This document shows, piece by piece, positions 1,462-31,105 of a DNA stretch of 32,000 nt. A program made the position numbers and the translations under genes. Within the stretch, counting starts at the first letter, position 1. Every line of letters begins with the position of its first letter. This stretch comes from Candidatus Omnitrophota bacterium (GTDB taxonomy: Bacteria; Omnitrophota; Gorgyraeia; Zapsychrales; JANLHA01): NCBI GenBank assembly GCA_963662715.1, contig OY759724.1, positions 300,001-332,000 of the forward strand, given 5' to 3'. The notes under the pieces are model-generated. The model ran no database searches, was not told the DNA's origin, and saw only the letters and a program-made list of their open reading frames with translations.

Positions 1462-1465
1462 ATAT

Positions 1466-1741
1466 TCACCTCATCATTTTGTTAATAGAAATCTTTTTAC
1501 TTCGGGTAAAATCAACCTTCAATCCTTGTTGAGTTTGGCGGACGGCAATCACGTTCCCTACCTTGAATTTCTTTACATAATCGCCTTTGACCCTCAATAT
1601 CCATTTCTTCTCACGATCCTCAAGAACAATATCGGATATCTTTTGTATTTTTTGATCAGGAGATTGCCGAATACTCTTGATTGTTCCCCTAACCTGCCTC
1701 CCAGGATGAAGCTCAATTTTTTTCATTTTTTCTTCTGCCAC
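1466..1741 (-). CDS. Small basic hypothetical protein (91 aa) between the VirB11-like ATPase and the relaxase; possible relaxosome accessory protein
   Basis: ORF packed 4 nt upstream of the relaxase start and 16 nt downstream of the ATPase stop, on the same strand. No recognisable motif. Weak resemblance to the relaxase C-terminal region. Confidence 0.5.
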   Translation of the reverse strand: MAEEKMKKIELHPGRQVRGTIKSIRQSPDQKIQKISDIVLEDREKKWILRVKGDYVKKFKVGNVIAVRQTQQGLKVDFTRSKKISINKMMR

Positions 1742-1757
1742 GACTTTATTCCTATGC

Positions 1758-2777: not shown

Positions 2778-2781
2778 TCCC

Positions 2782-5108: not shown

Positions 5109-5115
5109 CCCCGCA

Positions 5116-6952: not shown

Positions 6953-7035
6953 CGGATAACCTTTTCCTTCTTAGACACTTCTTCCTTTTCTTAACAAATC
7001 CAGAATATTTATTAATAAAGGGGAGTTTATAAGAA

Positions 7036-7758: not shown

Positions 7759-7762
7759 CGTC

Positions 7763-13695: not shown

Positions 13696-14214
13696 TCAGA
13701 TGTTTAAAAAGACATAAACAGTATATTGACTACTTTGGACACTGTAATAATCACACATGAAAAGGTCACGGGCAAATTTTTCGTAATCAAAATAGAAAGC
13801 TAACCGTTCCGGGATGTCCATTGTTTCATCAGCCAAATTTTCCGCAAAGGCCTCTTCTGAGTCCCATTCCCCTTGATAGGATTCTTCAAACCCTTCTTCT
13901 GTGGCATAATCAACGCCCACGTTATTGGCATAAGCCGCGTAGGCTTCCCCATGCTCTTCAATGAGCCGGGCGTATCGGACCACATCTTTGATGCTTTCAT
14001 ATTCCGATAGATGAAGTCCTTCAAAGCCCTCGTAATCATGAATCGCGTACTCCTCTGCGAAGGGTTCCGGGCTGTTTTTTAGCATATCCTGAATTTCTTC
14101 ATGGATAGCATCCGCATCCTGATTCGCGTCAATCCATCTTCCATGCAGTTTGCCGTTGTTGTACGCCGCCAAACAGGCAACGTAAATCCGGGGTGTAATC
14201 GTTTGAGTAGCCAT
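13696..14214 (-). CDS. ardA: Anti-restriction protein ArdA
   Basis: PRIYVACLAAYNNGKLHGRWIDA, a very acidic body and a C-terminal FDYEKFARDLFMCDYYSV are typical of ArdA. I place the start at the internal ATG at 14214 (MATQTITPRIY...), which has AAGGAG 8 nt upstream, rather than the track start at 14280. Confidence 0.9.
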   Translation of the reverse strand: MATQTITPRIYVACLAAYNNGKLHGRWIDANQDADAIHEEIQDMLKNSPEPFAEEYAIHDYEGFEGLHLSEYESIKDVVRYARLIEEHGEAYAAYANNVGVDYATEEGFEESYQGEWDSEEAFAENLADETMDIPERLAFYFDYEKFARDLFMCDYYSVQSSQYTVYVFLNI

Positions 14215-14248
14215 GAGCGCATCTCCTTTTTTGAGGATTAATCCGTTG

Positions 14249-14407
14249 GAGATCGAACCCTCGATCTCTGTTTGACTCACTCATGGACATATGCCATGCA
14301 AGGATGCGCAGGCTTTCCTTAAATGATCAAAATAACCATTTGGGAGAAAGCCAAGCACTCGCAAGTCCTGATGGTCTTTTATCAGGACGCCGTCCTTGTG
14401 GCATATG
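14249..14407 (-). promoter_or_regulatory. Highly structured ardA leader or upstream region with nested inverted repeats
   Basis: Outer arms CATATGCC..CAAGG (14288-14303) and CCTTG..GGCATATG (14394-14407). They enclose GGCTTTC/GAAAGCC (14311-14317/14346-14352) and GTCCTGAT/ATCAGGAC (14365-14372/14381-14388). A further hairpin GAGATCGA/TCGATCTC sits at 14249-14268. Confidence 0.35.
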
Positions 14408-18700: not shown

Positions 18701-21700
18701 CAAGGCGGTCTTCACTATCATACCCAAACGTCTCAAGCGTAACACCTGTGTCCAGGTCGCGCGTTTCTTTGTGAAGTCCTGTTTCTGACATCACATACTC
18801 AAAGCCGTCTTCCACAAAGACCTTCTCTTGGGACGTCGAGGTCATCAGCGAATTCATTTCCTCTTCAGGAAGGTCCCGGTCATAGACCCGCACATCATCC
18901 ATCTTTCCTTTAAAATAGTTACCCCATGTTCTCACTACACCTATATATCCAACACCATTAGAATAATACATTGCCCCTGCATCCCCACTATATGCTCCAC
19001 CGACATTGATGCCATTAATATAAATATCCATATTATTGCGACCTCGAATCACACCAACAATATGCGTCCACATATGCAAAGGCAGTACTGTGCCGGTCGA
19101 TTTCGAGTTTCTTGTATGACTGGATGCACGAGTGCCTTCCCTATCCCTCCCGCTTCCAAAATGTGCCTCAACTCCTCCGGTTCCCGAAACCTCCATAAAC
19201 GGCCCAAAATAATGATCCGGCGGATCATCCAGGGAAATGAGTCCTCCCGTTTGATATCCTTCCGGATATATCCACATCGAAAAGGTTACCGGCAAAGATG
19301 GCCTAATTTGATTGCCAATATTAATATAGTCGTTCACTCCATCAAATTCATAGGCACTATTTTCCTGACCAAATCTGTCGTCAGACATTATCGCCCCGGA
19401 AACCGTCCCATCATTACTATAACCACCCTCATCATTGGCATTGCCGTCAAATGGATAATAGGCGATTAAGCCGGAATAAACACTGTTAATCAACGCATCT
19501 TTCAAAATCCGCCCGTCTCCCGTATACAACTTACCTGCGTTTTCTCCATGATGATTCGATAACGCCCATCCTTCCATCAGGATATTTTTTGCCTTTGACG
19601 GACTGCTGATTTTTAAAGTATATTTCTCCCATAACGTTATTTCATTCCGCGCTTTGACTCCTGTTACAGTTGTGCCGGTACTTCCAAAAGCACTTGATGA
19701 TGTAATCCCTTGATAAACGTTATCATACACAAACCCCACCTCTACAGAAGCGATTGCGGTCCCCACCCTATTCCCTAAATAATTCAACCCATCCCACAAA
19801 AATTCTATCTGTTGGTTAGGCAACGGATCAAGTGTCTGTTTCATCACCTGACCAGCGATCGTAAGACGCACAATAATACTTTTAAGCGAATCTGGGACCA
19901 TATCATCAGTAACAGGAACATTGATCACGGTTTTATAGTCCTGAGTCCGGTTGCTCGCGTAATGCAGGGTCAGGCCTGTGCCGGAGACAGGGATATCTTC
20001 ATGATATACACGGCTGCGGCATGTGGCATAAGAATTCAAATTTTCTTTACATGGATCAGAAGTTTGCTGATCAATATTTACTAACTTCGACAAGAGCCAT
20101 GTGATGGCATCAACTGGTATCCCAAACGGCCAGTTACAATCCCAAGGTGAAAAATGTTTTGTTGAAAAACGCCAATACGTCGTTCCCGGCACATATTTCG
20201 CCGGATTATTTAATCCCAAGACCTCATCATCAAAAAAACCATCTCCATCTAAATCATCCTCAACATCATCTCCATCCGCGTCTAAGGCATCCACCACACC
20301 ATCGCTGTTGGTGTCCAGAAGTTTCACAACGACCCCATTCTCCGAGGGAACCCAAACTCCTCGGTCACGATCGTAATATCCCACCGGGACTATTTCTCCT
20401 ACATCAAACCCTAAAAAGTTATCTACGTAATTGACAATGGGTTTATCAAAACGCACGCGCTCTACTCCATCCACTTTAAGCTCTGCGCAGTATGTAAACG
20501 CGGATGTCGGAGGCAGGACTGCCGGCATGGACTCAGGAGTAGTGTATTCCGTAGCACGGGTAGTAATAGTATTAAGCTCAAACATATCGTTACCGTATTC
20601 ATCAACCGCATAAGCTTTATTATCTCCTGTGAAAACCATCGTTGCCCTGCGCGTGCCGGATTCGTCCGTAACCGGCGTACTTTCGTGGACGATAACTGTA
20701 TTCGGGTTACTGTCAAATGTAAAAGTAGTGGCCTTGGTGTCTTCGGCAATCATTGTGATTGTCTCAACAATCGCGATATCATTCCATGGAACATTCACCT
20801 TACGGTGCGCGGTCAGCAGACCATCTTTACTAAAGATAACATTGAGCGTGCCGCCCCCTTCAACTGGCAATGAATACTGACCATTCATATTGGTTTTTGT
20901 CGTCCCGTATTCCGGATGGTTGTCGATGGCAACAAGCACATCGGCCAAAGGAACTTCATTCACGTCATTAACATATCCTGTAATAAGAGAAAACCGCTTG
21001 GAATCATATTCTTCAATGGTTGCGTCGGGTGGGATAATGTTTTCATATTGCTTTCCAAAAGAACCCTCCGGTAAAGGCGTTGGAGTAGATTCAACGGTTA
21101 CCATGACTTGTGCGCTAGCAGAACCTTCCGGGCCCGTTGCTGTGATCGTATAGATGGATGTGCTGGCCGGAGAGACTTCCATAGTGTCGTTGGCAGAAAC
21201 AAGCCCTATGCCGTGATCAATGTATACACTGGTAACATTTTCCGCAAGCCAGGATAAAATCGTTGAGTCACCTTTTTGAATTGTTTGCGGAGAGGCCGTG
21301 ATATTGACAATTGGAAGAAGTGCAGAGCTTTCGACAACAATGGTAACATTATCAGTTGCAACCCCTCCCGCCCCCGACACTGTAATTGTGTAAGCTATGG
21401 TTGAGGCAGGTGAAACATCCTGCAAATCATTGCAATCCACAATACCAATGTCAGGCACAATTTCACACGTGTCTGCATTTGTTGATATCCAACTCAGTGT
21501 AGATGTTTCTCCTTCCTGAATTGTCATTGGATCAGCTTCTATATCAACCGTAGGCGCCTCCGGTGGCGGATTGACCGTGACTGTCACACTATCTACCGCA
21601 CTCCCGCCCGCACCTGTGGCGGTTATTGTGTACGTGGTAGTCTCATCGGGTGTGAGGGGAATTGATCCTGACGGGCCGAAAGTGCCCAATCCAGGAGTAA

Positions 21701-22229
21701 TCTCACAGGAATCAGTATCCGTTGAGGTCCAACTCAATGTGATTGATTCCCCTTCTATGACCGTTGCAGGATTAGAATTGATGCTGACCGTCGGTTGAGC
21801 TGGCGGCACTTTTATATCCCCTAAAATCTCGACTGTATAAGTAAACCTTGCCCGCTGGGAATTGTCAAATTCCCATCTTTTACTATCAGTTGTTGCACCC
21901 GGTAACAATTCGCCCAAAGCAACAGAATATTCAAAATATGGCTTTCCATCAGATGTCATCCCATCTGGATTCGCTACGGTAACACTGGCAGCACTGATAC
22001 TATCAATAACCGCCTTCATCGGAGTTAATAATGTATCCTGAGAGGTATTCTTTAACGAAACGTCCAAGTAATTAATACTGGTTCTGCGGTCAAAACTGAG
22101 TCTTGATTTAATCAGCTCAATCTTACCGGTAATATCCGTTTCCGCCGATGAAATGGTTAAAAATGAAAAAAGTGCGCAAACGATTCCCAGGACAATCAAC
22201 CAAATAGACTTCTTAAAATGTTGAGTCAT
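15762..22229 (-). CDS. RHS/YD-repeat polymorphic toxin, teneurin-like architecture (2155 aa)
   Basis: Domain order: Sec signal peptide; 3 Ig-like repeats; CarboxypepD_reg-like domain; Asp-rich Ca-binding-like stretch (DALDADGDDVEDDLDGDGFFDDE); LamG/ConA-like domain (YYPFDGNANDEGG...MDDVRVYDRDL); dozens of YD repeats (YxYDxxGR/N); RHS core end motif GDPVNFVDPMGL; then a 153-aa C-terminal domain. SD GGGAGGAG precedes the ATG. Confidence 0.95.
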   Translation of the reverse strand: MTQHFKKSIWLIVLGIVCALFSFLTISSAETDITGKIELIKSRLSFDRRTSINYLDVSLKNTSQDTLLTPMKAVIDSISAASVTVANPDGMTSDGKPYFEYSVALGELLPGATTDSKRWEFDNSQRARFTYTVEILGDIKVPPAQPTVSINSNPATVIEGESITLSWTSTDTDSCEITPGLGTFGPSGSIPLTPDETTTYTITATGAGGSAVDSVTVTVNPPPEAPTVDIEADPMTIQEGETSTLSWISTNADTCEIVPDIGIVDCNDLQDVSPASTIAYTITVSGAGGVATDNVTIVVESSALLPIVNITASPQTIQKGDSTILSWLAENVTSVYIDHGIGLVSANDTMEVSPASTSIYTITATGPEGSASAQVMVTVESTPTPLPEGSFGKQYENIIPPDATIEEYDSKRFSLITGYVNDVNEVPLADVLVAIDNHPEYGTTKTNMNGQYSLPVEGGGTLNVIFSKDGLLTAHRKVNVPWNDIAIVETITMIAEDTKATTFTFDSNPNTVIVHESTPVTDESGTRRATMVFTGDNKAYAVDEYGNDMFELNTITTRATEYTTPESMPAVLPPTSAFTYCAELKVDGVERVRFDKPIVNYVDNFLGFDVGEIVPVGYYDRDRGVWVPSENGVVVKLLDTNSDGVVDALDADGDDVEDDLDGDGFFDDEVLGLNNPAKYVPGTTYWRFSTKHFSPWDCNWPFGIPVDAITWLLSKLVNIDQQTSDPCKENLNSYATCRSRVYHEDIPVSGTGLTLHYASNRTQDYKTVINVPVTDDMVPDSLKSIIVRLTIAGQVMKQTLDPLPNQQIEFLWDGLNYLGNRVGTAIASVEVGFVYDNVYQGITSSSAFGSTGTTVTGVKARNEITLWEKYTLKISSPSKAKNILMEGWALSNHHGENAGKLYTGDGRILKDALINSVYSGLIAYYPFDGNANDEGGYSNDGTVSGAIMSDDRFGQENSAYEFDGVNDYINIGNQIRPSLPVTFSMWIYPEGYQTGGLISLDDPPDHYFGPFMEVSGTGGVEAHFGSGRDREGTRASSHTRNSKSTGTVLPLHMWTHIVGVIRGRNNMDIYINGINVGGAYSGDAGAMYYSNGVGYIGVVRTWGNYFKGKMDDVRVYDRDLPEEEMNSLMTSTSQEKVFVEDGFEYVMSETGLHKETRDLDTGVTLETFGYDSEDRLVSITDNMGNVVTVERDGDGVPTAIISPDGVRNELTVDTDDHLTRIEYPDSTGYDFEYTLGGLMTKETEPNGNYFTHTFDANGRLTDAYDQEEGHKSFARTVLNNGDIETTVTTAEGNITTYLDHTDTNGTYSSTITDPDGLITDYTRSADELTVNKVLPDGTVLDFQYDYDPEYKTKYIKEMSAQTPAGLIMQTTSSRTYTDTNTDGAVDHIERTVTVNGKTSSSVNDTLTSQITQTSPLGRAVTTTYDPATLLTSKVSAPGLLDTDYLYYPDGRLQSVTTGTRQTQYMYDSDGNVQSIEDPLHKITTFEYDAVGRTTAVHRPDSTDIHFTYDLNGNMTVLTNPKTINHGYIYNKVNGVKTYDPPLSADYAYTYDKDRRLLQKTFPSGKIIKNIYTNTQLTQIQTPEGNVDMIYFPSSGQLQTMSKSGESVTYGYDGALVTSKTLAGTLNQALSYAYNNDFQLTGFTYSGDTAGFGYDNDGLLTSASGFTIIRNANNGLPESVDDGVLNLGRTFNGYGELENQAVIVNSLPVTNWSLTYNDNGQISAKTETVAGVTADYSYEYDAVGRLTKVYKDSTLVEEYAYNNGIRSLETNILRGISGKSYGYNDEDQLLTAGSTTYQYDDDGFLRTKVEGISSTTYDYSSRGELLEVALPGGNTIKYVHDPLGRRIAKQVNSVTTEKYLWDGLTQLLAVYNGSNNLLMRFEYADARMPFKMVKGGSAYYLTYDQVGSLRVVTDASGAVVKRIDYDSFGNIINDSAPSFEVPFGFAGGLHDRDTGLVRFGFRDYDPEVGRWTAKDPIGFDGGDWDLYAYTLGDPVNFVDPMGLEKWLYIVAGGSGGLGLTGGGGEMILVNITTGEYHRWFYGSVGVGPKGGAYVSIQVGIYETFIDPEDISQFGFSISGFAAAGQGVAGQISGTGTYGEGELGGACGIAGGIGAGISPEFVVTWGHEEGTINPPDLQDLLSNVGRKFPQLRNFLLK
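15765..16223 (-). other. RHS C-terminal toxin domain (153 aa), glycine-zipper-rich, candidate membrane-active effector
   Basis: Begins right after DPMGL (GAG codon at 16221-16223). Contains GGSGGLGLTGGGG, GFAAAGQGVAGQISG and GGACGIAGGIGAGI. No nuclease, deaminase or peptidase motif recognised. Confidence 0.5.
21090..21797 (-). repeat. Three tandem ~80-aa Ig-like repeats inside the RHS N-terminus (protein-level repeat)
   Basis: Repeated pattern P.TI.EGES.TLSW.S...C.I.P.IG......SP..T..YTIT.TG.GG.A...VTV at residues ~145-380. The DNA copies have diverged. Confidence 0.7.
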
Positions 22230-22290: not shown

Positions 22291-22899
22291 TTATAAAGCG
22301 GACAACTTGTCATAAAGCTCTTTCTGGGCTTTAGAAAAAGTCCTGTTAATAGCTAGGTTTGCTCTTTCATGTGCTTTTCGGTGATAAGTGGGTCCCGTTC
22401 CAGCACCGCTTTCCTCTCGATCATGACAGACAACCTCGGCTAAAGTTACTGGCTGACCGTTTTTAACTTCAATGACTTCAAAACGAATGCTAATCTCAAA
22501 AGCGGCTTTGGTGAATAACATCATTTTAGCTTTATAATGGACATCTTCTATTGTGACTCGAAGAACAAGGGGATGGTCTGCTGAGGCTGAATTTTCTTCC
22601 TGCTCTCTACCGAAGAGCGACGTCATTAAATTTTTGCTGTTTTGCAAAAAGACATCATAGAAATCCGCACGCATACGTTCTAGCCTTTCTCCTTTGTGAC
22701 CAATCGGGAATATTTCCAAAACACGAGCATCTTCAAAGGAGTCAGTATCGATTGTCCACGGACGGTTTGAAACAAGCTTCGACTCCATCTTGAATGAATG
22801 GTGCGTCCGTGAAGCCATGCGCTCAGATGTGCATGCTGAGAACAGAATCGGTAAAAATAAGATTGAAAAATATATCTTCACACATTTATTCATAATCAT
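22291..22899 (-). CDS. Lipoprotein, unknown function
   Basis: 202 aa. Signal peptide with lipobox LFSAC. Its start shares one nucleotide with the upstream gene's stop (TAATG). Lies 61 nt upstream of the RHS gene. Confidence 0.75.
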   Translation of the reverse strand: MIMNKCVKIYFSILFLPILFSACTSERMASRTHHSFKMESKLVSNRPWTIDTDSFEDARVLEIFPIGHKGERLERMRADFYDVFLQNSKNLMTSLFGREQEENSASADHPLVLRVTIEDVHYKAKMMLFTKAAFEISIRFEVIEVKNGQPVTLAEVVCHDREESGAGTGPTYHRKAHERANLAINRTFSKAQKELYDKLSAL

Positions 22900-23519
22900 T
22901 ACTCCTTTTTATTAAGCAAGGGAGAATTATTTATAAGTTTCTTAACTAGGCTCCCAATTGCCGTTTTTTGCGGATCAGTGCTAAATTCATGAATCACCGT
23001 CCTTGAACTTGAAAGAGCAACTAAAGTAAAAGGTGTGTCGATCCAATCCTGATTTGCCTGTTCAGACCAGAACAATTTCCCTGTTTCATTATCGACAATA
23101 TAAAGGGTAACTGCGGCTTTTCCCGTTTCTGCCAAAATGGGAATACCCTCTTTTTCATTTTTATCGATAGTATAAATAAGGACGTGTTTGAAGGCTGTCG
23201 GGGCTATAGCACGCATGTTTTTTCCTGATTTAATTGATTCGATTTGGGCTGGAGTGATTTTGAAATCAGGACAGCAATCACTTGAAATGATGAGTGAATA
23301 ACCGTTATCGGCTAAATTACTGACTATTCCTGTATAAAGCCAATTCTTAATGGGGTAATATTTCTCTTTAGAGCCTGTGTCCTCAATAACAAGCAATGGC
23401 GCGAGAATGACTTTTTCACGAGTCGAATAATCAGCGGTATGCTCCATAGTACCGCAACCCGCAAAGATAAGAAGGAAAACGATAAAGGTAAATAAAAATA
23501 CCGACCTTTTTATAGACAT
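22899..23519 (-). CDS. Lipoprotein, possibly LpoB/DUF799-like alpha/beta fold
   Basis: 206 aa with lipobox IFAGC. The pattern VILAPL...LADNGYSLI...HVLIYTID...VTLYIVDNETGKLFWSE recalls TolB-N/LpoB/GNA1162-type lipoproteins. That family call is inference only. Confidence 0.7.
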   Translation of the reverse strand: MSIKRSVFLFTFIVFLLIFAGCGTMEHTADYSTREKVILAPLLVIEDTGSKEKYYPIKNWLYTGIVSNLADNGYSLIISSDCCPDFKITPAQIESIKSGKNMRAIAPTAFKHVLIYTIDKNEKEGIPILAETGKAAVTLYIVDNETGKLFWSEQANQDWIDTPFTLVALSSSRTVIHEFSTDPQKTAIGSLVKKLINNSPLLNKKE

Positions 23520-23860: not shown

Positions 23861-24403
23861 CTATGTACGAATTCTTCTCTTCTTTCTGCTGCCAAATACA
23901 CCAGCCAAGCCCGTGCTGAAAAGAAACAATGTACATGGCTCAGGAATGACATTCGACTCTGTGGCCAAATCAATGTTATAAAGGCGTGCGGTACTGCCAG
24001 CGTCAAAATCTCCTCCCCAGATCAATCCCCAGGCCAGAGATACTTCACTTCCCTGATACGAGGATAAGTCGATGTCATAATGACCGGCAGATGTGTTAGC
24101 ATCCACCTCCAATTCCGGGAAAAAGTCCAGTTCAAACGTAAAATAATCATCCACATCATCGGGCCCAAGCTGAAAATCATAGTCAAAAGACAAAATCGTG
24201 GCATCATTCTCGACAAGAAAGTTATCATTGAAAAAATACCAAGCCACGTTATCCATTGTTTCCGTGAATGAAACTTCCCCGCCACTGACAACCACATCAT
24301 CCTCTGCCGTAAAACCGCTTAAATCGAGCGGCATGGCTTGTGCAATCCGACAGCATAATAACATGCAAAAACTTACACATAGCACCATAAACATTCGTCT
24401 CAT
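23861..24403 (-). CDS. PEP-CTERM sorting-domain secreted protein
   Basis: 180 aa with an N-terminal signal peptide. The C-terminal VIPEPCTLFLFSTGLAGVFGSRKKRRIRT gives a PEP motif, a TM helix and a basic tail. Confidence 0.9.
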   Translation of the reverse strand: MRRMFMVLCVSFCMLLCCRIAQAMPLDLSGFTAEDDVVVSGGEVSFTETMDNVAWYFFNDNFLVENDATILSFDYDFQLGPDDVDDYFTFELDFFPELEVDANTSAGHYDIDLSSYQGSEVSLAWGLIWGGDFDAGSTARLYNIDLATESNVIPEPCTLFLFSTGLAGVFGSRKKRRIRT

Positions 24404-24808: not shown

Positions 24809-24897
24809 ACATTATACACAAATCTTGTACTCTTGTAAAGGCATTTCATACCCCTACCTGAGTGTACCTTAGCGGTATTGTCATAGATAATAAATCC

Positions 24898-25125
24898 ATG
24901 AAAAATGATCCCAAATATATCAAAAGCATTCTTGCCAAAAACATAAAAAAATATCGCGGGAAATTAAACCTGACTCAGGAACAAGCCGCGGAAAAGGTGG
25001 GCATCACCGCAAAATACTGGCAACGGCTGGAAATGGTTTCCCAAATTGACCTTCCCTCTCTACAAGTCCTCTTTCGCATCGCGGAAGGTCTTAAAACAAA
25101 ACCCTATAAGCTGTTGGTGGAATAG
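24898..25125 (+). CDS. XRE-family helix-turn-helix transcriptional regulator
   Basis: LAKNIKKYRGKLNLTQEQAAEKVGITAKYWQRLE is a canonical Cro/C1 HTH. I prefer the ATG at 24898 (75 aa) to the GTG at 24862 used by the track. Neither has a strong SD. Confidence 0.85.
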   Translation: MKNDPKYIKSILAKNIKKYRGKLNLTQEQAAEKVGITAKYWQRLEMVSQIDLPSLQVLFRIAEGLKTKPYKLLVE

Positions 25126-25311: not shown

Positions 25312-26466
25312 TTATACTTTACGGCGCATTACAACTTTAAACATGTTCCCATCTTTATCATTGACAAAATCAATATCTGGATACTCTTTTAAAGCTCTTT
25401 GCACGCCGGTCCCGATCCCGCGATAGGGTAATATCTTTGTTGCAAATGAAGACAATATTGGATTGCGTACATTGGAATTACCATTTTTGATATTCTCAAC
25501 TGTCAAGTTATTGGGCAAATGACCAGGACTAATAAATTCAAGACGGTTATCAAATATGAATATTCTTATGGATGCAGAAATAAAATAATCTCTATGGATT
25601 AATGCATTGACCAATAACTCCTCAATTGCTATTTCGGGTATTTCAAGCACTCCAAGAGAATTAATATTTTGACCATTTTGAACTTTTTTTAAATTTCTAA
25701 GAATAAACGATTTGCTTTCTTTGAAAACGTCTTCTAATTTTCCTACCACATCAACACTTTCTATATATGTTGTTGAATGAATGTCATTGCCTGGATAACA
25801 TATAGCCTTAACTATGCTTCTAACTGGCAACTTTATTTGTGGATTTTTAGCAAAAAGAAGTGCTCCACCTACATTCATATTTCCATCTTTCATCAAATTC
25901 ATGTTTTCCAGAAGGACTGGAAGAGGGTTTTCTTGATCATCGAGCTTGATCCCATTGATTTTTTCAAAAAACATGGAAAAATATTGCACGTCTAATTCAG
26001 CAACAGTCATATTAGAAATAATTTCCTCATCCCCATGTAGTAAACCAGCTTTTTGAAATAACCGTTGTATTTCTTCTTTGGCAGTAGCTTTGCGTTTGTC
26101 TGCACCACTTTTTACCCAGAAAACGCCATCTTTGTCAGAATACGGCTTGCTTATACCATCTATGACAGTAATAATGATTATAATCTTTCCGTCTAACGAA
26201 ATGTTTTCCGTATGGGGATTAATGGGATTCTTGACATGCTGGGATGCTGCGTTAGATATCAGATTATTCAATCGGTTAATATCCTGCTGTGACAAACCAA
26301 CAATATCACCATTATCGTTTACACCGATAAATATTTGTCCTCCTCCAGAATTACTAAAAGCAATCATTTCTTGTGCTAATGAAATCTCGTTGGTGAAATC
26401 CTGTTTGAATTGATGTTTACTATCTTCCCCCCGAGAAATTATTTCTAAGAATTCTGTAACTTCCAT
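25312..26466 (-). CDS. AlbA_2 (Schlafen-like DNA/RNA-binding) plus HATPase_c_4 domain protein
   Basis: 384 aa. The N-terminus EDSKHQFKQDF...EMIAFSNSGGGQIFIGVNDNGDIVGL is AlbA_2. The C-terminus EELLVNALIHRDYF...IFIFDNRLEFISPGHLPNNLTVENI..GNSNVRNPIL...RGIGTGVQR is RecG-C/HATPase_c_4-like. Its start overlaps the upstream gene by 22 nt. Confidence 0.85.
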   Translation of the reverse strand: MEVTEFLEIISRGEDSKHQFKQDFTNEISLAQEMIAFSNSGGGQIFIGVNDNGDIVGLSQQDINRLNNLISNAASQHVKNPINPHTENISLDGKIIIIITVIDGISKPYSDKDGVFWVKSGADKRKATAKEEIQRLFQKAGLLHGDEEIISNMTVAELDVQYFSMFFEKINGIKLDDQENPLPVLLENMNLMKDGNMNVGGALLFAKNPQIKLPVRSIVKAICYPGNDIHSTTYIESVDVVGKLEDVFKESKSFILRNLKKVQNGQNINSLGVLEIPEIAIEELLVNALIHRDYFISASIRIFIFDNRLEFISPGHLPNNLTVENIKNGNSNVRNPILSSFATKILPYRGIGTGVQRALKEYPDIDFVNDKDGNMFKVVMRRKV

Positions 26467-29087
26467 ATCTGATAAATCTCCTTTCGTCGATTAAAAGCCT
26501 CTTTACCACCTTCCATAATATCGACTATTTTCTTCTGTGTGTATGGGCAGTCAATATTCCCTTTATCGACATCAATTTTATCATCCGTATAATGACACGC
26601 AAAAATACACTCAGAATCGCCAAGTACTGGTATATTCGCATTGTGTGTGGCAAATATAAATTGAGTTCCTTCCTTTAGTTCCTTTATGAGCTTTATAACA
26701 TCTTCATAGATTGTCTGATTATCCAAATCATCCTCTGGTTGATCAATCAATATTAAATCGTTGTCTCGTTGACTTAAAACAAAAAGAATTAATGCCGATG
26801 CCCTTTGTCCGAGAGAATGATGTTTTAATTCCTTCCCCCGATAATTAATCGTAAAACGATTAGGTACTTGCCAAGTAAGCAATTCAATCAAATTATCATT
26901 AAAATAACTCTCGAAAATATTTGAGGCTGCCCCTAACATGTCCTTTACTTTTTCGAATTCCTTAAACATTGCTCCAAAATCTGCGAACGACTCTGACAAA
27001 CTTTTAAAGGTGGTTTCTCTAATTTTGCTACCACGAAAGATGTTTTTCATATAATCGACGCATGCGTTCTTATCTTCTTTAAATTCAACGATAATTTGTA
27101 GAGCAGAATGATTTTTATTAACCTTTTCAAGTTCTGCTTGGACTGCGATATATTCTTCATGCCATAAATTGTTTAAAGCAGTCAACTCCGTGATTAATTC
27201 TGTCTTTAATTTTGCTTGTTGAGTTTGTTGTTTCTCAAGAGCTGTTAACATTTGAGTTGCCTGATCAACAATTTTCTTTAATTTTAGGAATTCGTCAGGA
27301 CGTATTGCTTGTGCACCTTTCTCTTTTAACTCCTCCGAAAGTTTTCTCTCTATCTCAGCAAATTCTTCTTTAAGACCATTTTTCAGTTTGTCAAATTCTT
27401 GCGCACGACTAGTCAAATCATTTATGCCGGAAGTCGCGATTTCAAAAGCCTTTTTAATCTGCTCAAATGATTGAATAATTTTTGTATATGATTCAAAATA
27501 TCTTAAAAAGAAATCTTTGTTGCGCTTTGACTCATAACGGTTTTGACTAACAATTTCATCCTCATAGCGAGCGATAAAATTTGTCAATGATCCCAAGTAA
27601 TCCTTTGTTATTTTTAATACCTGTTGTGTTTTTCTACTATCTGCTTCGAAATCAATTTGTTTTTGAAGTTTATCTTCAACAGAATGTTTCTTGTAAAAAT
27701 CCAGTTTAAAAACGGCGTCTTTTTTCTTTGCATCATATTCTTTCTTTTTTTCTTCAACATTTTCCAATTTTTTTAATTGGGCTATAACATCTGCGACTTT
27801 TTGTTTCTGTGCTTCAATACGGTTTCTAACACCCGCTAAATGATCTCCAACTAATTTCTCAACAAGGTCTTTTTCAAATCCTTCGCCTGAACTTGATAAA
27901 TCCTTTTGTCCAAAATATATAGGCCGAGAAATAATTGTTTCTCGAATAGACACTCCTACCTGAAGAGTGTCATTAACATATACGTCGGGTTGTTCATTTA
28001 AAATGCGACGTATTTCATACTCCTGTCCCCTCCGGTCTACGGCTTTCAATACAACCTTCCCACCACTTCCCAAAACATGTTGAACTAATTTATTTTTATA
28101 TACATCATCTACAACTTTGTCACCAAAAGGTATATCTAATGCATATCTTACCGCTTCCAATATTGATGACTTCCCACTCCCACGGATACCTATCAAAGAG
28201 TTTAATTCGGGAGAGAAATCAATTTCCTTTCCCGCAAGCACACCCCCCTCAAAAGATATACTTTTAACAAAAGAATGCTTATGTTCAACGGGTTTAGAAG
28301 CAACTCTGTTAGCAAAGTCAACTAAGGCATACTTAACAGCGCCAAAATTAAAATCACCAATTTTTATATAGCATTTTTCGCCAGATCCTATTGTATCAAT
28401 AGATTTACAATCTGATCCTTCAACCTCAGCGGGGTACCAATCTCCAAGCCAATTCTGAACCTTGACTCTACATACTCTATCTTTTTCAGCCTCGTGTGTA
28501 CGCACTTTTTGAAAAGCCAGTGTTTTTTCTTTAAATTGTTCATTTCTCCCCAGCTCTTGAATGCGTCCTCCCGAAAGACTTCCCCATAAACCATTGTCTG
28601 CCTCGACATGAGCAAAAATGAGAAAGTAATCCCTTTCAAATTTATCTAATTCACGAATCGTCTCTAATAAATCATGATTTGATCTAGCATTTTCGTTATC
28701 ATAATTAGGTTGTCCAGAAAAAGTAACATTTAAGAAGTCATTAATATAGTTTTTATTCTCAGTGTTGCATATCCAATCATCATTAAAGACAACAAGAGCA
28801 TGAACACCTGCCTTGCCATCTTTTACTGAAAGCTCTATTCCAGGCAATAAAAATATTTCTTCTTTCAAAGCGCTTTTTCTTAAGGCTTTAAACTCATCTA
28901 GATCAAATTTATTATGATTCGTAATTATTCCCAAACGAATGCCATTATTTTTTAATGCAACAACATATTCATTTATGAAATTATTTTTATCTCCCTCGCA
29001 GGTGAATTCTTTATCTTTAATCGTGTGCAAGTGAAAGTCAGCACGAATCCAAGTAGAACCATATTTTAACAAATTAATATCACTCAT
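26445..29087 (-). CDS. PHP-domain phosphoesterase fused to an SMC/Rad50-like ABC ATPase with a coiled-coil insert (Ppl-like)
   Basis: 880 aa. PHP ligand motifs: ADFHLHT (H19/H21), ITNHN, PGIELS, VHALVVF, FAHVE. Walker A: GIRGSGKSS (28167-28190, K306). A Lys/Glu-rich helical region of about 300 aa follows. Signature-like HSLGQRA, Walker B LILIDQPEDDLD and H-loop FATHN are present. SD GAGGAGG precedes the ATG. Confidence 0.9.
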   Translation of the reverse strand: MSDINLLKYGSTWIRADFHLHTIKDKEFTCEGDKNNFINEYVVALKNNGIRLGIITNHNKFDLDEFKALRKSALKEEIFLLPGIELSVKDGKAGVHALVVFNDDWICNTENKNYINDFLNVTFSGQPNYDNENARSNHDLLETIRELDKFERDYFLIFAHVEADNGLWGSLSGGRIQELGRNEQFKEKTLAFQKVRTHEAEKDRVCRVKVQNWLGDWYPAEVEGSDCKSIDTIGSGEKCYIKIGDFNFGAVKYALVDFANRVASKPVEHKHSFVKSISFEGGVLAGKEIDFSPELNSLIGIRGSGKSSILEAVRYALDIPFGDKVVDDVYKNKLVQHVLGSGGKVVLKAVDRRGQEYEIRRILNEQPDVYVNDTLQVGVSIRETIISRPIYFGQKDLSSSGEGFEKDLVEKLVGDHLAGVRNRIEAQKQKVADVIAQLKKLENVEEKKKEYDAKKKDAVFKLDFYKKHSVEDKLQKQIDFEADSRKTQQVLKITKDYLGSLTNFIARYEDEIVSQNRYESKRNKDFFLRYFESYTKIIQSFEQIKKAFEIATSGINDLTSRAQEFDKLKNGLKEEFAEIERKLSEELKEKGAQAIRPDEFLKLKKIVDQATQMLTALEKQQTQQAKLKTELITELTALNNLWHEEYIAVQAELEKVNKNHSALQIIVEFKEDKNACVDYMKNIFRGSKIRETTFKSLSESFADFGAMFKEFEKVKDMLGAASNIFESYFNDNLIELLTWQVPNRFTINYRGKELKHHSLGQRASALILFVLSQRDNDLILIDQPEDDLDNQTIYEDVIKLIKELKEGTQFIFATHNANIPVLGDSECIFACHYTDDKIDVDKGNIDCPYTQKKIVDIMEGGKEAFNRRKEIYQIWKLQNS

Positions 29088-29118: not shown

Positions 29119-29724
29119 TCAAAGTATTGCATCAAGCCATGTTTGGATTAACGGTTTGATACGACAAATTTGCGCATATTTTAACAGCTTTTCTATATTG
29201 CGGTTTTTCTGTTTTAAATATTCAGACAAACCTTCTTTTGCGATGTCCACTCCTAATTTATTTCTATATCTAAAACAGTCGCAAATGGTTTTTTCCATAC
29301 AATATATACGTACAGGATTATCTTTTATTTTTATCTCAACGATTCCAGACTGAAACTGTTTCTGAGAAAAATAATAAAATTCTACAGGGGGATATGCTAA
29401 TTTAGGGCGCCATGATTTTCGATAGATGGCAACAGAAATCATAGACGGATTAAAAGTAGTCAACTCATAATATGAAAGTGCTGATAACAAACACACTACA
29501 CTTTCAGGAACGGCTTTTGAAACATCAATAAAACTTTGATTTGAAGTAGATGGTATCTGCGCCAGTTTATAAAGTCCATTCTTTACTTTTACGATATTTC
29601 CACCTTCAACCATCTCTTTTATTTTACGGGAATGAAATCCGTTAGCCAAAATATCTTTCGACCTTGCATATCCATTATGGCTTTTAAAGATATCTATAAT
29701 ATTATTTTGTTTTTTATTATTCAT
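29119..29724 (-). CDS. AbiEi-family (type IV TA antitoxin-like) transcriptional regulator
   Basis: 201 aa. The N-terminal wHTH IIDIFKSHNGYARSKDILANGFHSRKIKEMVEGGNIVKVKNGLYKLA and the C-terminal VCLLSALSYYELTTFNPS...VRIYCMEKTICDCFRYRNKLGVDIAKEGL match the AbiEi pattern. Lies 31 nt upstream of the PHP-ATPase gene. Confidence 0.8.
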   Translation of the reverse strand: MNNKKQNNIIDIFKSHNGYARSKDILANGFHSRKIKEMVEGGNIVKVKNGLYKLAQIPSTSNQSFIDVSKAVPESVVCLLSALSYYELTTFNPSMISVAIYRKSWRPKLAYPPVEFYYFSQKQFQSGIVEIKIKDNPVRIYCMEKTICDCFRYRNKLGVDIAKEGLSEYLKQKNRNIEKLLKYAQICRIKPLIQTWLDAIL

Positions 29725-29757: not shown

Positions 29758-29791
29758 GGCACATTATAACAAGTGCCTATGATGATGTCCA
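29758..29791 (-). promoter_or_regulatory. Near-consensus sigma-70 promoter of the AbiEi/PHP-ATPase/AlbA_2 operon, with an overlapping inverted repeat
   Basis: On the minus strand: TGGACA (29791-29786), a 17-nt spacer, then TGtTATAAT (-10 at 29768-29763), ~40 nt upstream of the ATG at 29724. The inverted repeat GGCAC(29758-29762)/GTGCC(29773-29777) brackets the -10. Confidence 0.55.
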
Positions 29792-30145: not shown

Positions 30146-31105
30146 TTAGCCATAAACATGATTTGATATATCTTCTTCCTTCTTCTGAATGGCGGCAATG
30201 GTGTGTTTCGCCTCAAACGCCTCTTTTGACGCGGGGCCAGCTAAGATTTCAATAGCGCAGGCAATATCATATTGCTCCTTAAGCTTTTCATGTGCCCAAA
30301 AAGTGCTCTTAAAATATAGATCATACTTGCAAAGTGTATCCGCCAAGGGTCGAATCCCCCGTACATCTCCTATGGACGCCAATGCTCGCGCTGTAATTCC
30401 GCACAGGTCTGATGCTTCAGTGGGAACAATCCGGCTCGTAGAACCATCAGCTTGAGGGAATTCCTGCCGTGGATAAATGAATGATGTGAAGTGCTCGATA
30501 AGAACGATAAGGATATCCTCCGCTTGCGGGCTAGCCATCTCTCCAAGGGCGATGACAGCTTCTTTAACCCCTGTCTCAATATTCGATAAACGACAATGTC
30601 CTCTGTATCCATACACCATTTCGTGGACACCGAAAGCTTTTTCTTCGAGAAAGCGTATTATCGTTGGAATACAGCGGAGATCGCGAATATGGCCAAATGC
30701 TTTAAATATGCAAGATTGGGCAAGCGCGCTGCACTGTGTCACCTGGGCCATCATACACTCCACATCATGCGGCGAGCCCTTCCCTGAAAGTGATTTTTGT
30801 ATTGATGCAACAAGTGAATCATAGACTTCATATGACATTTTACCTCTTTTGGAATCAAAACGATCTAGTGTCCTAATCAATGCCAGGACAATCCGCGGGT
30901 CATCCATAGCAGCTAAAGCTGTCGCTGCGTCACAAATAACCTGCCAATTAGGACAAGACAAAGCTCTTAACAAACAGCCCGTTCGTTTTTTTAAAGCCCA
31001 CATATGGACGTCGGCACAGTCCGTTGTGGACAATTGCACCCTCCGAATTGTTTTTATGCAAAACCAGACAAAAAACGCACAAATTAAAATTTCGAAAATG
31101 ATCAT
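30146..31105 (-). CDS. Membrane-anchored HEAT-repeat protein
   Basis: 319 aa with an N-terminal TM helix. Repeated HEAT/PBS-lyase-like units: AATALAAMDDPRIVLALIRTL, AVIALGEMASPQAEDILIVLIE, ARALASIGDVRGIRPLADTL. Confidence 0.7.
   Translation of the reverse strand: MIIFEILICAFFVWFCIKTIRRVQLSTTDCADVHMWALKKRTGCLLRALSCPNWQVICDAATALAAMDDPRIVLALIRTLDRFDSKRGKMSYEVYDSLVASIQKSLSGKGSPHDVECMMAQVTQCSALAQSCIFKAFGHIRDLRCIPTIIRFLEEKAFGVHEMVYGYRGHCRLSNIETGVKEAVIALGEMASPQAEDILIVLIEHFTSFIYPRQEFPQADGSTSRIVPTEASDLCGITARALASIGDVRGIRPLADTLCKYDLYFKSTFWAHEKLKEQYDIACAIEILAGPASKEAFEAKHTIAAIQKKEEDISNHVYG

What the first reader, a model, noticed from the sequence alone, without database searches (positions are those of the whole stretch)
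26445..29087. Single-chain analogue of Mre11-Rad50/SbcCD in which a PHP domain supplies the nuclease
- The 880-aa protein has all recognisable PHP metal-ligand motifs (HxH at 19-21, ITNHN, GIE, VHAL, FAHVE), so the phosphoesterase is probably active.
- It is followed by a split ABC ATPase head: Walker A GSGKSS at ~303-308, and signature-like SLGQRA, Walker B LILIDQPEDDLD and H-loop ATHN near the C-terminus.
- The two halves of the head are separated by ~300 aa of Lys/Glu-rich heptad-like sequence, which is the Rad50/SbcC/RecN topology.
- In SbcCD and Mre11-Rad50 the nuclease is a separate calcineurin-like subunit. Here a PHP fold is covalently fused instead.
- This implies ATP-gated cleavage of DNA ends, hairpins or replication intermediates, a logical way to target phage or plasmid DNA.
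Basis: partly seen in the sequence, partly recalled or inferred. Interest (0 to 1): 0.7.

Follow-up and report, generated by a model that had tools for sequence, protein, structure and literature searches.

The report
TrlF–TrlG mobile defence-island gene pair
The 880-residue protein is real and built as described (a PHP phosphoesterase fused to an SMC/Rad50-like ATPase), but it belongs to the already named TrlF family, a relative of the anti-phage protein Ppl, and it works as a two-gene unit with an overlapping Schlafen-type partner gene.

Summary
ORF 26445..29087 (minus strand, 880 aa) carries every cited motif at the stated position. An AlphaFold2 model (pLDDT 82) shows an N-terminal beta/alpha domain, a split ABC head and about 255 aa of long helices. 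Its best PDB matches are MukB, SMC, JetC, RecN and Rad50.

- The architecture is not new. The protein scores 561 bits on NCBIfam "TrlF family AAA-like ATPase" (cutoff 350). It is a distant relative of the anti-phage protein Ppl (139 bits against a cutoff of 1000).
- It is not a single-chain system. A 384-aa Schlafen(AlbA_2)+GHKL protein (TrlG, 25312..26466) overlaps its stop codon by 22 nt. TrlG follows TrlF in 68 of 73 related genome loci and co-evolves with it (r = 0.91).

The pair is the TRL operon known from Photorhabdus, where it causes growth arrest at 36-37 C that depends on TrlG. Elsewhere the cassette sits inside BREX loci and type I/III R-M loci, and on conjugative plasmids. In the window it lies beside conjugative-transfer genes. 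The most likely function is a mobile anti-phage or anti-MGE module, but this has not been tested.

Two points remain unexplained. Both proteins carry an invariant Gln where relatives have a catalytic acid: TrlF in Walker B (D-Q-P-E) and TrlG in the nuclease motif (Ex4QxK).

Verdict: a new member of a known kind, of moderate interest.

The parts
26445..29087 (-). trlF: 880-aa TrlF-family protein (PHP phosphoesterase + SMC-like ABC ATPase with coiled-coil insertion)
   Evidence: ORF. NCBIfam NF045780, 561 bits against a cutoff of 350, full length. AF2 model pLDDT 82. Foldseek matches MukB, SMC, JetC, RecN and Rad50.
28353..29060 (-). TrlF residues ~10-245: PHP-type metal phosphoesterase domain (D17, H19, H21, H58, E85, H96, H160, D226)
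   Evidence: Motifs. Invariance down to 30% identity. N-domain profile hits PHP structures 2anu, 1m65, 9etk and 2yb1. NCBIfam CehA/McbA metallohydrolase domain, E=1.2e-4. Alternating strand/helix pattern in the model.
27888..28280 (-). TrlF residues ~270-400: N-terminal half of the ABC head (Walker A G300-S307, Q-loop Q394)
   Evidence: Pfam SMC_N, AAA_23 and AAA_29. Invariant residues.
27114..27878 (-). TrlF residues 404-658: long helices forming the predicted antiparallel coiled coil. Apex at 518-523 with conserved aromatic residues. No CxxC hook.
   Evidence: AF2 secondary structure: H404-517, turn, H524-658. Lys/Glu enrichment and no CxxC. Conserved apex residues D510, Y518, S520, Q522, N523, F526, F527, F530, F531, Y534.
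26463..27110 (-). TrlF residues ~660-875: C-terminal half of the ABC head (signature S758-L-G-Q-R, Walker B D782 followed by Q783-P-E785, D-loop D786-D789, H-loop H815)
   Evidence: Pfam AAA_21, 6.5e-11. Motif conservation.
25312..26466 (-). trlG: 384-aa Schlafen(AlbA_2, 14-127) + GHKL ATPase-like (HATPase_c_4, 298-363) partner ('Schlatpase'). Its start overlaps the trlF stop by 22 nt and it has its own AAGGAG SD.
   Evidence: Pfam. Immediately downstream of TrlF in 68 of 73 loci. AF2 and Foldseek: 3lmm, SLFN11/14/12/5/13, SAMD9 tRNase, histidine-kinase CA domains. Motif analysis. Co-evolution r=0.91.
29119..29724 (-). AbiEi-like wHTH gene, 31 nt upstream of trlF. Probably co-transcribed and a possible local regulator. 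Not a conserved part of the cassette.
   Evidence: PADLOC AbiEi, 1.6e-68. No homologue beside trlF in 73 loci. No AbiEii-sized ORF adjacent.
29763..29791 (-). Sigma-70-like promoter (TGGACA-17-TATAAT, 11 of 12, with TG) upstream of the AbiEi-like gene. Candidate promoter of abiEi-trlF-trlG.
   Evidence: Consensus scan. This is a pattern match only.
24862..25125 (+). XRE-type HTH_3 gene convergent with trlG. Membership in the unit is uncertain.
   Evidence: Pfam HTH_3, 2.3e-8. No homologue near trlFG in other loci.

Best explanation
The ORF is trlF. Together with the overlapping downstream gene trlG it forms a self-contained, horizontally mobile two-gene cassette, the TRL module first named in Photorhabdus.

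TrlF:
- A PHP-type metal phosphoesterase fused to an SMC/Rad50-like ABC ATPase.
- The two halves of the ATPase head are joined by a coiled coil with arms of about 115-135 residues.
- The coiled coil ends in a conserved aromatic apex instead of a zinc hook.
- It is a paralogue of the anti-phage protein Ppl.

TrlG is a Schlafen (AlbA_2) + GHKL-ATPase 'Schlatpase'.

Proposed mechanism. Only the anatomy, gene linkage and conservation are shown here; every mechanistic step is inferred.
1. A TrlF dimer binds ATP through its head. Hydrolysis is probably slow, because the Walker B catalytic position is Gln.
2. TrlF surveys DNA. By analogy with Ppl, free 3' ends of invading DNA and/or a fall in NTP levels engage the PHP nuclease.
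3. This state is communicated to TrlG, which oligomerises through its ATP-binding GHKL domain.
4. TrlG arrests growth, giving an abortive-infection type backup to the BREX or R-M systems in which the cassette is so often embedded.

In Photorhabdus the same module arrests growth on a shift to 36-37 C, and this arrest requires TrlG.
For: Identity and architecture:
- NCBIfam TrlF, 561 bits against a cutoff of 350, full length.
- PADLOC Ppl 1.9e-33 and NCBIfam Ppl 1.9e-40 show homology to Ppl.
- AF2 model, SMC/MukB/JetC/RecN/Rad50 fold matches and PHP structure hits for the N-domain.

Two-gene unit:
- TrlG lies immediately downstream in 68 of 73 loci, overlapping by 13, 19 or 22 nt in 62 of them.
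- The same pair occurs in the closest relative.
- TrlG occurs on 53 plasmid records; the annotated records listed show it adjoining a TrlF-family gene.
- TrlF and TrlG distances correlate at r=0.905; Mantel test 0 of 2000.
- The domain layout is identical to Photorhabdus TrlG: AlbA_2 14-128, HATPase_c_4 298-365.

Defence context:
- PglX-TrlF-TrlG-PglZ-BrxL.
- hsdR-trlF-trlG-hsdS-AAA-hsdM on IncC plasmid pNDM102337.
- Type III MTase and REase neighbours.
- 830 of 1161 plasmid records with a match are conjugative.
- T4SS genes and ArdA in this window.
- A drop in GC to 0.31-0.36 across the cassette.

Function of relatives:
- Ppl is an NTP-inhibited 3'-5' ssDNA exonuclease that senses 3'-OH ends (PMC12904381).
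- SLFN+GHKL modules are ATP-dependent oligomerising tRNase effectors in anti-phage defence (10.64898/2026.05.29.728809; PMC13056530; PMC13462974).
- Schlafen + histidine-kinase-like genes are linked to BREX in at least 1017 taxa (PMC12839542).

Growth arrest: in Photorhabdus TRL, all suppressors map to trlG and none to trlF (10.1101/2020.06.02.129163).
Against: - No phage, plasmid or biochemical test exists for any TrlF-TrlG pair in the literature I could search.
- TrlG lacks the second catalytic acid of the Schlafen nuclease motif: Ex4QxK in 67 of 67 orthologues. Mutating that position, alone or with the first Glu, kills tRNase activity in RzAgo, CbCash and RorSlfn5. TrlG may therefore not be a nuclease.
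- The Photorhabdus authors interpret TRL as a temperature-adaptation locus, not an immune system.
- Some TrlF-family genes are solo, as Ppl is, so TrlF can presumably act alone.
- No physical TrlF-TrlG interaction has been shown or modelled.
- The PHP assignment is remote: there is no Pfam PHP hit for this protein, relatives reach 25 bits against a cutoff of 26.4, and the last canonical His ligand is Lys.
Confidence: 0.6

Rival explanations
1. One reading: TrlF is an autonomous single-chain Mre11-Rad50/SbcCD analogue. Its ATP-hydrolysis cycle gates PHP-mediated cleavage of DNA ends or hairpins, and TrlG is an unrelated or merely regulatory neighbour.
For: - Ppl works as a single gene (PMC12904381; solo).
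- Solo TrlF-family genes exist on plasmids.
- The PHP ligands and ABC motifs are conserved.
- The head and coiled coil are SMC/Rad50-like.
Against: - TrlG is present in 68 of 73 loci of this clade, with overlapping reading frames and correlated divergence.
- The pair moves as a unit between BREX, R-M, plasmid and ICE contexts.
- The Photorhabdus phenotype maps to trlG, not trlF.
- The Walker B catalytic Glu is Gln.
- There is no Zn hook.
Confidence: 0.15
2. The TRL pair is not an immune system. It is instead a stress- or temperature-responsive growth-arrest or addiction module that stabilises the mobile element or tunes host physiology, as proposed for Photorhabdus.
For: - The only experimental data show temperature-induced transcription and reversible growth arrest (10.1101/2020.06.02.129163).
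- The cassette is located on conjugative plasmids and ICE-like elements.
- An AbiEi-type antitoxin/regulator gene sits upstream here.
Against: - The cassette is repeatedly inserted inside BREX and R-M operons.
- Its relatives Ppl and the Schlafen-GHKL proteins are demonstrated anti-phage factors.
- Temperature-dependent autoimmunity is a plausible side-effect of a defence system. This last point is my inference.
Confidence: 0.15
3. TrlG is a DNA-binding transcriptional regulator (as many records annotate it) that controls trlF, and TrlF is the only effector.
For: - Source annotations read 'putative DNA binding domain-containing protein' or 'transcriptional regulator'.
- The degenerate nuclease motif Ex4QxK suggests binding rather than cleavage.
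Against: - TrlG has no HTH domain; it ends with the GHKL fold.
- The GHKL ATP-binding residues E283 and N287 are invariant.
- If TrlF were the only effector, trlF loss-of-function suppressors should have been common in Photorhabdus, yet none were found among 31.
Confidence: 0.07
4. TrlF is a housekeeping DNA-repair enzyme, a functional substitute for SbcCD or Mre11-Rad50 in this organism.
For: It has an SMC/Rad50-like fold and a nuclease-type domain.
Against: - Its distribution across phyla is patchy although sequence identity stays high.
- It is carried by plasmids, ICEs and phages.
- It lies in a low-GC island.
- Its neighbours differ in every genome.
Confidence: 0.03

Closest known systems
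TRL operon (trlR-trlF-trlG) of Photorhabdus laumondii; NCBIfam NF045780 'TrlF family AAA-like ATPase'
   Same: - TrlF scores above the family cutoff over its full length.
- The downstream partner has the same AlbA_2 + HATPase_c_4 layout at the same residue positions.
- The gene order trlF then trlG is the same.
   Different: - The upstream gene here is a 201-aa AbiEi-like protein rather than the 79-aa TrlR.
- The host differs, and the context is an ICE-like element.
- The temperature phenotype is unknown here.
Ppl (anti-phage protein, PHP + P-loop ATPase; NCBIfam NF042955, PADLOC Ppl)
   Same: - Same overall architecture: PHP domain, split ABC head and helical insertion.
- Same unusual Walker B sequence, DQPEDDLD.
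- Homology is detectable over residues 10-637.
   Different: - Only about 21-27% identical; 139 bits against a cutoff of 1000.
- Ppl is a solo gene, whereas this clade has TrlG.
- Ppl keeps the canonical PHP 'SDAH' motif, whereas TrlF has 'SD(C/P)K'.
Rad50-Mre11 / SbcCD and other SMC-like ABC ATPases (MukB, JetC, RecN, LmuB)
   Same: - Head split by an antiparallel coiled coil.
- Walker A, Q-loop, signature, D-loop and H-loop are present.
- The ATPase is associated with a metal-dependent nuclease.
   Different: - The nuclease is a PHP fold fused in cis, not a calcineurin-like subunit.
- The coiled coil is short (about 115-135 aa per arm).
- There is no Zn hook or hinge.
- The catalytic Glu after Walker B is Gln.
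- Sequence scores are far below the family cutoffs.
Two-component ABC-ATPase defence systems (PARIS AriA-AriB, Lamassu LmuB-LmuA, Septu PtuA-PtuB)
   Same: - An ABC/SMC-like ATPase gene is paired with a separate effector-type gene.
- The location is a defence island or mobile element.
- PARIS also ends in tRNA-directed growth arrest.
   Different: - TrlF carries its own PHP nuclease-type domain.
- The partner is a Schlafen+GHKL protein, not TOPRIM, Cap4 or HNH.
- PADLOC similarity to AriA, LmuB and PtuA is weak (E 1e-10 to 1e-3) and is limited to ABC motifs.
Prokaryotic Schlafen-GHKL 'Schlatpase' proteins (SLFN-pAgo RzAgo; pSlfn-HisKinase class)
   Same: - TrlG has the SLFN fold, the AF(S/A)N Schlafen box, the GHKL N-box (E283/N287, matching RzAgo E314/N318) and the stand-alone SLFN-GHKL layout.
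- It is also linked to BREX and R-M loci.
   Different: - The nuclease motif is Ex4QxK, not Ex4(D/E)xK.
- There is no Ago, NACHT, Ig or HTH sensor domain.
- Instead it has an obligate TrlF neighbour.

Membership tests
TrlF family (NCBIfam NF045780) | Whole-protein HMM score at or above the curated cutoff (350 bits), with full-length coverage | tested here: met
   561.2 bits, residues 10-873 against profile positions 2-944 of 944
TrlF family / TRL operon | Immediately downstream TrlG partner (AlbA_2 + HATPase_c_4) | tested here: met
   25312..26466, overlapping trlF by 22 nt. Pfam AlbA_2 at 14-127 and HATPase_c_4 at 298-363, against 14-128 and 298-365 in Photorhabdus.
TrlF family / TRL operon | Small upstream regulator TrlR (79 aa) | tested here: not met
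   The upstream gene is a 201-aa AbiEi-like protein. Upstream genes vary across 57 loci.
TrlF family / TRL operon | Temperature-induced growth arrest | not testable with these tools
   Needs culture experiments.
Ppl (NCBIfam NF042955) | HMM score at or above the cutoff (1000 bits) | tested here: not met
   138.6 bits. About 21% identity to E. coli Ppl.
Ppl | Single-gene system | tested here: not met
   TrlG is conserved and coupled to TrlF here. Ppl is solo in pDC71-2.
Ppl | NTP-inhibited 3'-5' ssDNA exonuclease activity | not testable with these tools
   Needs biochemistry. The claim is taken from PMC12904381.
PHP phosphoesterase superfamily | Conserved metal ligands (HxH, H, E, H, H, D, H) | tested here: inconclusive
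   - H19, H21, E85, H96, H160 and D226 are invariant.
- H58 is conserved in close relatives and is Tyr in distant ones.
- The final His is Lys: SDCK, against SDAH in Ppl.
- About 7 of the 9 canonical positions are kept; the canonical count is from my own knowledge of YcdX.
PHP phosphoesterase superfamily | Pfam PF02811 at or above the gathering score | tested here: not met
   No hit for the window N-domain. Relatives reach 25.0 bits against a cutoff of 26.4.
PHP phosphoesterase superfamily | Profile or fold similarity to solved PHP structures | tested here: met
   The N-domain profile hits TM0559 (2anu) at 1.9e-4, then YcdX, 9etk and 2yb1, with the motifs aligned. A domain-level fold search was not possible.
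Rad50/SbcC | Family HMM score | tested here: not met
   Rad50 models score 27.8 and 23.1 bits against cutoffs of 1000 and 700.
Rad50/SbcC | Zn-hook CxxC at the coiled-coil apex | tested here: not met
   There is no CxxC in the protein.
SMC-like ABC ATPases (topology) | Head split by an antiparallel coiled coil, with Walker A, Q-loop, signature, Walker B and H-loop | tested here: met
   AF2 helices 404-658 lie between the two head halves. Foldseek matches MukB at 2.6e-12, SMC, JetC, RecN and Rad50. Motifs.
SMC-like ABC ATPases | Catalytic Glu immediately after the Walker B Asp | tested here: not met
   D782-Q783 in 25 of 25 diverse members, and also in Ppl.
Schlafen nucleases (for TrlG) | Ex4(D/E)xK catalytic motif | tested here: not met
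   E14-x4-Q19-x-K21 in 67 of 67 orthologues. Unlinked paralogues in the same loci have Glu at this position.
Schlafen-GHKL 'Schlatpase' (for TrlG) | SLFN fold plus a GHKL domain with the ATP-binding N-box | tested here: met
   Foldseek matches SLFN11/14/12/5/13, SAMD9 and histidine-kinase CA domains. E283 and N287 are invariant.
AbiE toxin-antitoxin | AbiEi paired with an AbiEii nucleotidyltransferase | tested here: not met
   AbiEi is present (PADLOC 1.6e-68), but the adjacent genes are trlF on one side and, beyond a non-coding gap, a HEAT-repeat protein on the other.

The most novel reading that the evidence does not exclude
TrlF-TrlG is a distinct two-component immune system that has not yet been described. 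In it, a Ppl-like DNA-end-sensing PHP nuclease/SMC-like ATPase controls a Schlafen-GHKL partner. Both proteins sit in natural 'E-to-Q' states: Walker B D-Q, and SLFN Ex4QxK. That would make them nucleotide-binding switches rather than turnover enzymes. The 'temperature restriction' of Photorhabdus would then be autoimmunity of this system. The system would also explain why the commonest prokaryotic Schlafen class (Slfn-HisKinase) did not protect in the one published screen, where such genes may have lacked their partner (whether a partner gene was included is not stated).
Probability: 0.4. Interest if true: 0.6.

Novelty: new member of a known kind. Interest (0 to 1): 0.35.

Why it matters

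What the follow-up adds is a testable link between three separate literatures:
- the Photorhabdus temperature-restriction locus,
- the anti-phage protein Ppl,
- prokaryotic Schlafen-GHKL effectors.

The TrlF-TrlG cassette is widespread. It occurs across many phyla, inside BREX and type I/III R-M operons, and on IncC NDM plasmids. In the literature I could search, it has never been tested as a defence system.

If it is one, it would:
- give a partner-dependent mode of Schlafen regulation,
- give an example of an SMC-like sensor with a built-in nuclease,
- explain a host-range-limiting temperature phenotype as autoimmunity.

Tried and rejected
- AbiE reading. The upstream AbiEi-like gene suggested a toxin-antitoxin pair with TrlF (Pfam even labels AAA_21 'putative AbiEii toxin'). 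No AbiEi homologue lies beside trlF in 73 other loci, and there is no AbiEii NTase here. I rejected AbiEi as a core part.
- Rad50/SbcC and Ppl membership. Both fail their curated cutoffs.
- Sequence search of PDB with the whole protein and with its profile gave only weak P-loop hits to SMC and Rad50. No Ppl or TrlF structure was found.
- Pfam gave no PHP hit for this protein. The PHP assignment needed a custom N-domain profile.
- No tRNA genes were found that could mark an integration site.
- Literature that could not be obtained:
  - The primary Ppl mechanism paper was not found; only a review statement is available.
  - Krishnan et al. 2020 on ABC ATPases, which may already describe PHP-ABC fusions and their neighbours, is not held.
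  - The two defence-modularity preprints do not mention this pair.

Full report
**1. Observation**

The window has a single ORF at 26445..29087 on the minus strand: 880 aa, ATG start, preceded by GGAGG.
- HLH 19-21, ITNHN 55, GIE 83, VHAL 95, FAHVE 158
- GSGKSS 303, SLGQRA 758, LILIDQPEDDLD 778, ATHN 813

Residues 431-740 are enriched in Lys and Glu.

The gene is real:
- At least 4828 homologues exist at E<=1e-5, with about 61% identity kept across Nitrospirota, Desulfobacterota, Clostridia, Actinomycetes, KSB1 and Brocadia.
- An exhaustive HMMER scan finds 496 clusters (50% identity) at E<=1e-30, with full-length relatives down to about 30% identity.

**2. What the protein is**

Family assignment:
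- NCBIfam places it in NF045780, 'TrlF family AAA-like ATPase': 561 bits against a cutoff of 350, full length.
- It is well below the cutoffs of the related families Spaf_1101 (162 against 475) and Ppl (139 against 1000).
- PADLOC's best hit is Ppl (1.9e-33, mainly residues 9-317), followed by weak ABC-type hits to mad3, AriA, PtuA and LmuB.
- Ten diverse relatives at 30-36% identity all still pass the TrlF cutoff and fail the Ppl cutoff. TrlF and Ppl are therefore sister clades.

AlphaFold2 model (56-sequence alignment, mean pLDDT 82, pTM 0.64):
- residues 12-243: alternating strand/helix domain
- residues 273-392: mixed alpha/beta head half containing Walker A
- residues 404-517 and 524-658: long helices, with a turn at 518-523
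- residues 663-875: second head half

Foldseek against PDB returns MukB (2.6e-12), the Smc head with coiled coil, JetC, condensin and cohesin heads, RecF, RecN and Rad50.

PHP domain:
- Pfam gives no PHP hit for this protein; relatives reach 25 bits against a cutoff of 26.4.
- A profile of 16 diverse N-domains hits only PHP-family structures, with HxH, GxE and the following His aligned: TM0559 at 1.9e-4, then YcdX, 9etk and 2yb1.
- D17, H19, H21, E85, H96, H160 and D226 are invariant down to 30% identity.

- The residue after the Walker B Asp, where ABC/SMC/Rad50 ATPases have the catalytic Glu, is an invariant Gln: D782-Q783-P-E785. This holds in 25 of 25 diverse members and also in E. coli Ppl.
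- The last PHP ligand His ('SDAH' in Ppl) is Lys in TrlF ('SDCK').

There is no CxxC hook. Instead the coiled-coil apex carries a conserved aromatic patch.

**3. It is not a single-chain system**

The next gene, 25312..26466 (384 aa), starts 22 nt before the trlF stop codon and has its own AAGGAG inside trlF. It has Pfam SLFN_AlbA_2 at 14-127 and HATPase_c_4 at 298-363.

Linkage evidence:
- Among 73 genome loci encoding TrlF relatives (46-79% identity, many phyla), 68 have this gene immediately downstream. It is 54-78% identical, and the reading frames overlap by 13, 19 or 22 nt in 62 of them.
- The AbiEi-like upstream gene of the window has no counterpart in any of the 73 loci. Upstream genes vary: small XRE, excisionase-type or RHH regulators, or PglX and R-M methylases.
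- Pairwise divergence of the two proteins is tightly correlated over 55 sequence pairs, the 54 loci plus the window (Pearson r = 0.905; Mantel 0 of 2000).
- On plasmids the partner occurs in 53 records, and the annotated records listed show it adjoining a TrlF-family gene.

**4. Origin of the name and the only experimental data**

TRL is the 'Temperature Restricting Locus' of Photorhabdus laumondii, an operon trlR-trlF-trlG (bioRxiv 10.1101/2020.06.02.129163, published as PMC7554251).
- TrlG there has AlbA_2 at 14-128 and HATPase_c_4 at 298-365, the same layout as the window's partner.
- The operon is induced on a shift to 36-37 C and arrests growth.
- All characterised temperature-tolerant suppressors carried trlG mutations. 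None lay in the 2.3-fold larger trlF.
- Deleting the whole operon is tolerated and relieves the restriction.
- No phage or plasmid experiments were done.

**5. Context points to defence**

- The closest relative (TrlF 86%, TrlG 90% identical) lies in the order PglX-TrlF-TrlG-PglZ-BrxL, followed by a ThsB-TIR gene.
- Other loci show PglX upstream with PglZ and BrxL downstream, BrxHI, and type III methylase and restriction genes.
- On IncC plasmid pNDM102337 the pair is inside a type I R-M operon: hsdR-trlF-trlG-hsdS-AAA-hsdM.
- TrlF-family genes occur on 1161 plasmid records, 830 of them conjugative. They also occur in small phage or satellite records and in a P2-like phage.
- In the window the cassette lies in a low-GC stretch (0.31-0.36, against 0.40-0.47 on either side). 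It is next to a type IV secretion/relaxase gene set and ArdA, so it looks like cargo of a conjugative element.

**6. What relatives do**

- A 2026 review describes E. coli Ppl as a single-gene 3'-5' ssDNA exonuclease. NTPs bound to both the PHP and NTPase domains inhibit it, nucleotide depletion relieves this, and it detects 3'-OH ends made by phage homing endonucleases (PMC12904381). I could not find the primary paper.
- TrlG's model (pLDDT 73) matches the uncharacterised protein 3lmm, then SLFN11/14/12/5/13 and the SAMD9 tRNase domain, then histidine-kinase catalytic domains.
- This SLFN+GHKL 'Schlatpase' module is an ATP-dependent oligomerising tRNase effector in SLFN-pAgo (10.64898/2026.05.29.728809).
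- Prokaryotic Schlafens are anti-phage tRNases with an Ex4(D/E)xK motif (PMC13056530; PMC13462974).
- Schlafen + minimal-histidine-kinase genes are linked to BREX in at least 1017 taxa (PMC12839542). None of these papers mentions a PHP/ABC partner.

TrlG differs in one key respect. It reads E14-D-S-K-H-Q19-F-K21, with Gln at the second catalytic position in 67 of 67 orthologues. Three of four unlinked Schlatpase paralogues in the same loci keep Glu there. Mutating that position, alone or together with the first Glu, abolishes activity in RzAgo (D32A), CbCash (E17Q/D22N) and RorSlfn5 (E15A/D20A). The GHKL N-box residues (E283, N287) are invariant.

**7. Mechanism (inference)**

Shown here: the architecture, the gene linkage, the conservation and the genomic context.

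Inferred:
- TrlF acts like Ppl, as a nucleotide-regulated, DNA-end-directed PHP nuclease on an SMC-like scaffold.
- Its ATPase is a binding switch more than a motor (Walker B D-Q).
- TrlF and TrlG form a complex.
- TrlG, through GHKL-driven oligomerisation, delivers the growth arrest seen in Photorhabdus.

The absence of trlF suppressors in Photorhabdus argues that TrlF is not the sole toxic effector. It may even restrain TrlG. The Q19 substitution leaves open whether TrlG cleaves RNA or arrests growth by binding nucleic acid.

Rivals:
Solo TrlF genes do exist.
- A stress or addiction module.
- TrlG as a regulator of trlF.
- Housekeeping DNA repair.

**8. Comparison and novelty**

The protein is a member of the TrlF family, with the cutoff met and the partner present. 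It works like, but is not a member of, Ppl and Rad50/SbcC. It resembles two-component ABC-ATPase systems such as PARIS and Lamassu in logic only.

What remains open is the function of the TrlF-TrlG pair as a defence module, and the meaning of the two natural Gln substitutions. This is of moderate interest.

Noticed in passing
window 10-10231 (-) and 13696-14280 (-): A conjugative transfer gene set: relaxase/DUF3363 and homologues of VirB11, TrbI/VirB10, CagX/VirB9, VirB8, TrbL/VirB6 and VirB4. An ArdA antirestriction gene is also present. The window appears to be part of an integrative conjugative element on a 3.36-Mb contig.
   Followed up: partly
window 15762-22229 (-): A 2155-aa teneurin-like YD-shell/RHS-repeat protein with Laminin_G_3 and TTR-like domains, probably a polymorphic toxin. 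Two small lipoprotein-like ORFs (22291-23519) without family hits lie downstream of its 5' end.
   Followed up: partly
window 29119-29724 (-): An orphan AbiEi-like gene (PADLOC 1.6e-68) with no AbiEii nucleotidyltransferase partner. It lies 31 nt upstream of trlF, behind a strong sigma-70-like promoter match at 29763-29791. It may act as the local regulator in place of TrlR.
   Followed up: partly
window 26445-29087, TrlF residues 782-789; also L075 (E. coli Ppl) and L074/L076: Walker B reads D-Q-P-E-D-D-L-D throughout the Ppl/TrlF clade. The position of the catalytic Glu of ABC/SMC/Rad50 ATPases is an invariant Gln, like the engineered 'EQ' hydrolysis-deficient mutants.
   Followed up: partly
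window 25312-26466, TrlG residues 14-21: The Schlafen nuclease motif is Ex4QxK instead of Ex4(D/E)xK in all 67 TrlF-linked orthologues. Unlinked Schlafen-GHKL paralogues in L027, L047 and L053 keep Glu at this position.
   Followed up: yes
window 27485-27560 approx., TrlF residues 510-534: The coiled-coil apex is unusually conserved and aromatic (D510, Y518, S520, Q522, N523, F526, F527, F530, F531, Y534). It is a candidate dimerisation or TrlG-docking element in place of a zinc hook or hinge.
   Followed up: no
L077 (E. coli IncC plasmid pNDM102337) 3377-7164: trlF-trlG is inserted inside a type I R-M operon (hsdR-trlF-trlG-hsdS-AAA ATPase-hsdM) on NDM-carrying IncC plasmids of E. coli, Klebsiella and Proteus. 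This recalls prrC embedded in the prr R-M locus.
   Followed up: partly
L078 1722-13712 (JGI metagenome 3300009480): The closest relative of the cassette (86% and 90% identity) is embedded in a type 1 BREX locus between PglX and PglZ. BrxL and a ThsB-TIR gene lie downstream.
   Followed up: yes
H56-H60 (phage collection): TrlF-family genes occur in 20-kb Listeria 'phage' records (41% identity, full length), in a 14-kb Vibrio element and in a P2-like Yersinia phage. Carriage by satellites and prophages is likely.
   Followed up: no
window 23861-24403 (-) and 30146-31105 (-): A PEP-CTERM-anchored protein and a HEAT/PBS-lyase repeat protein flank the low-GC cassette. GC rises again from about 30 kb, which suggests the island boundary lies near 29.8-30.1 kb.
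   Followed up: no
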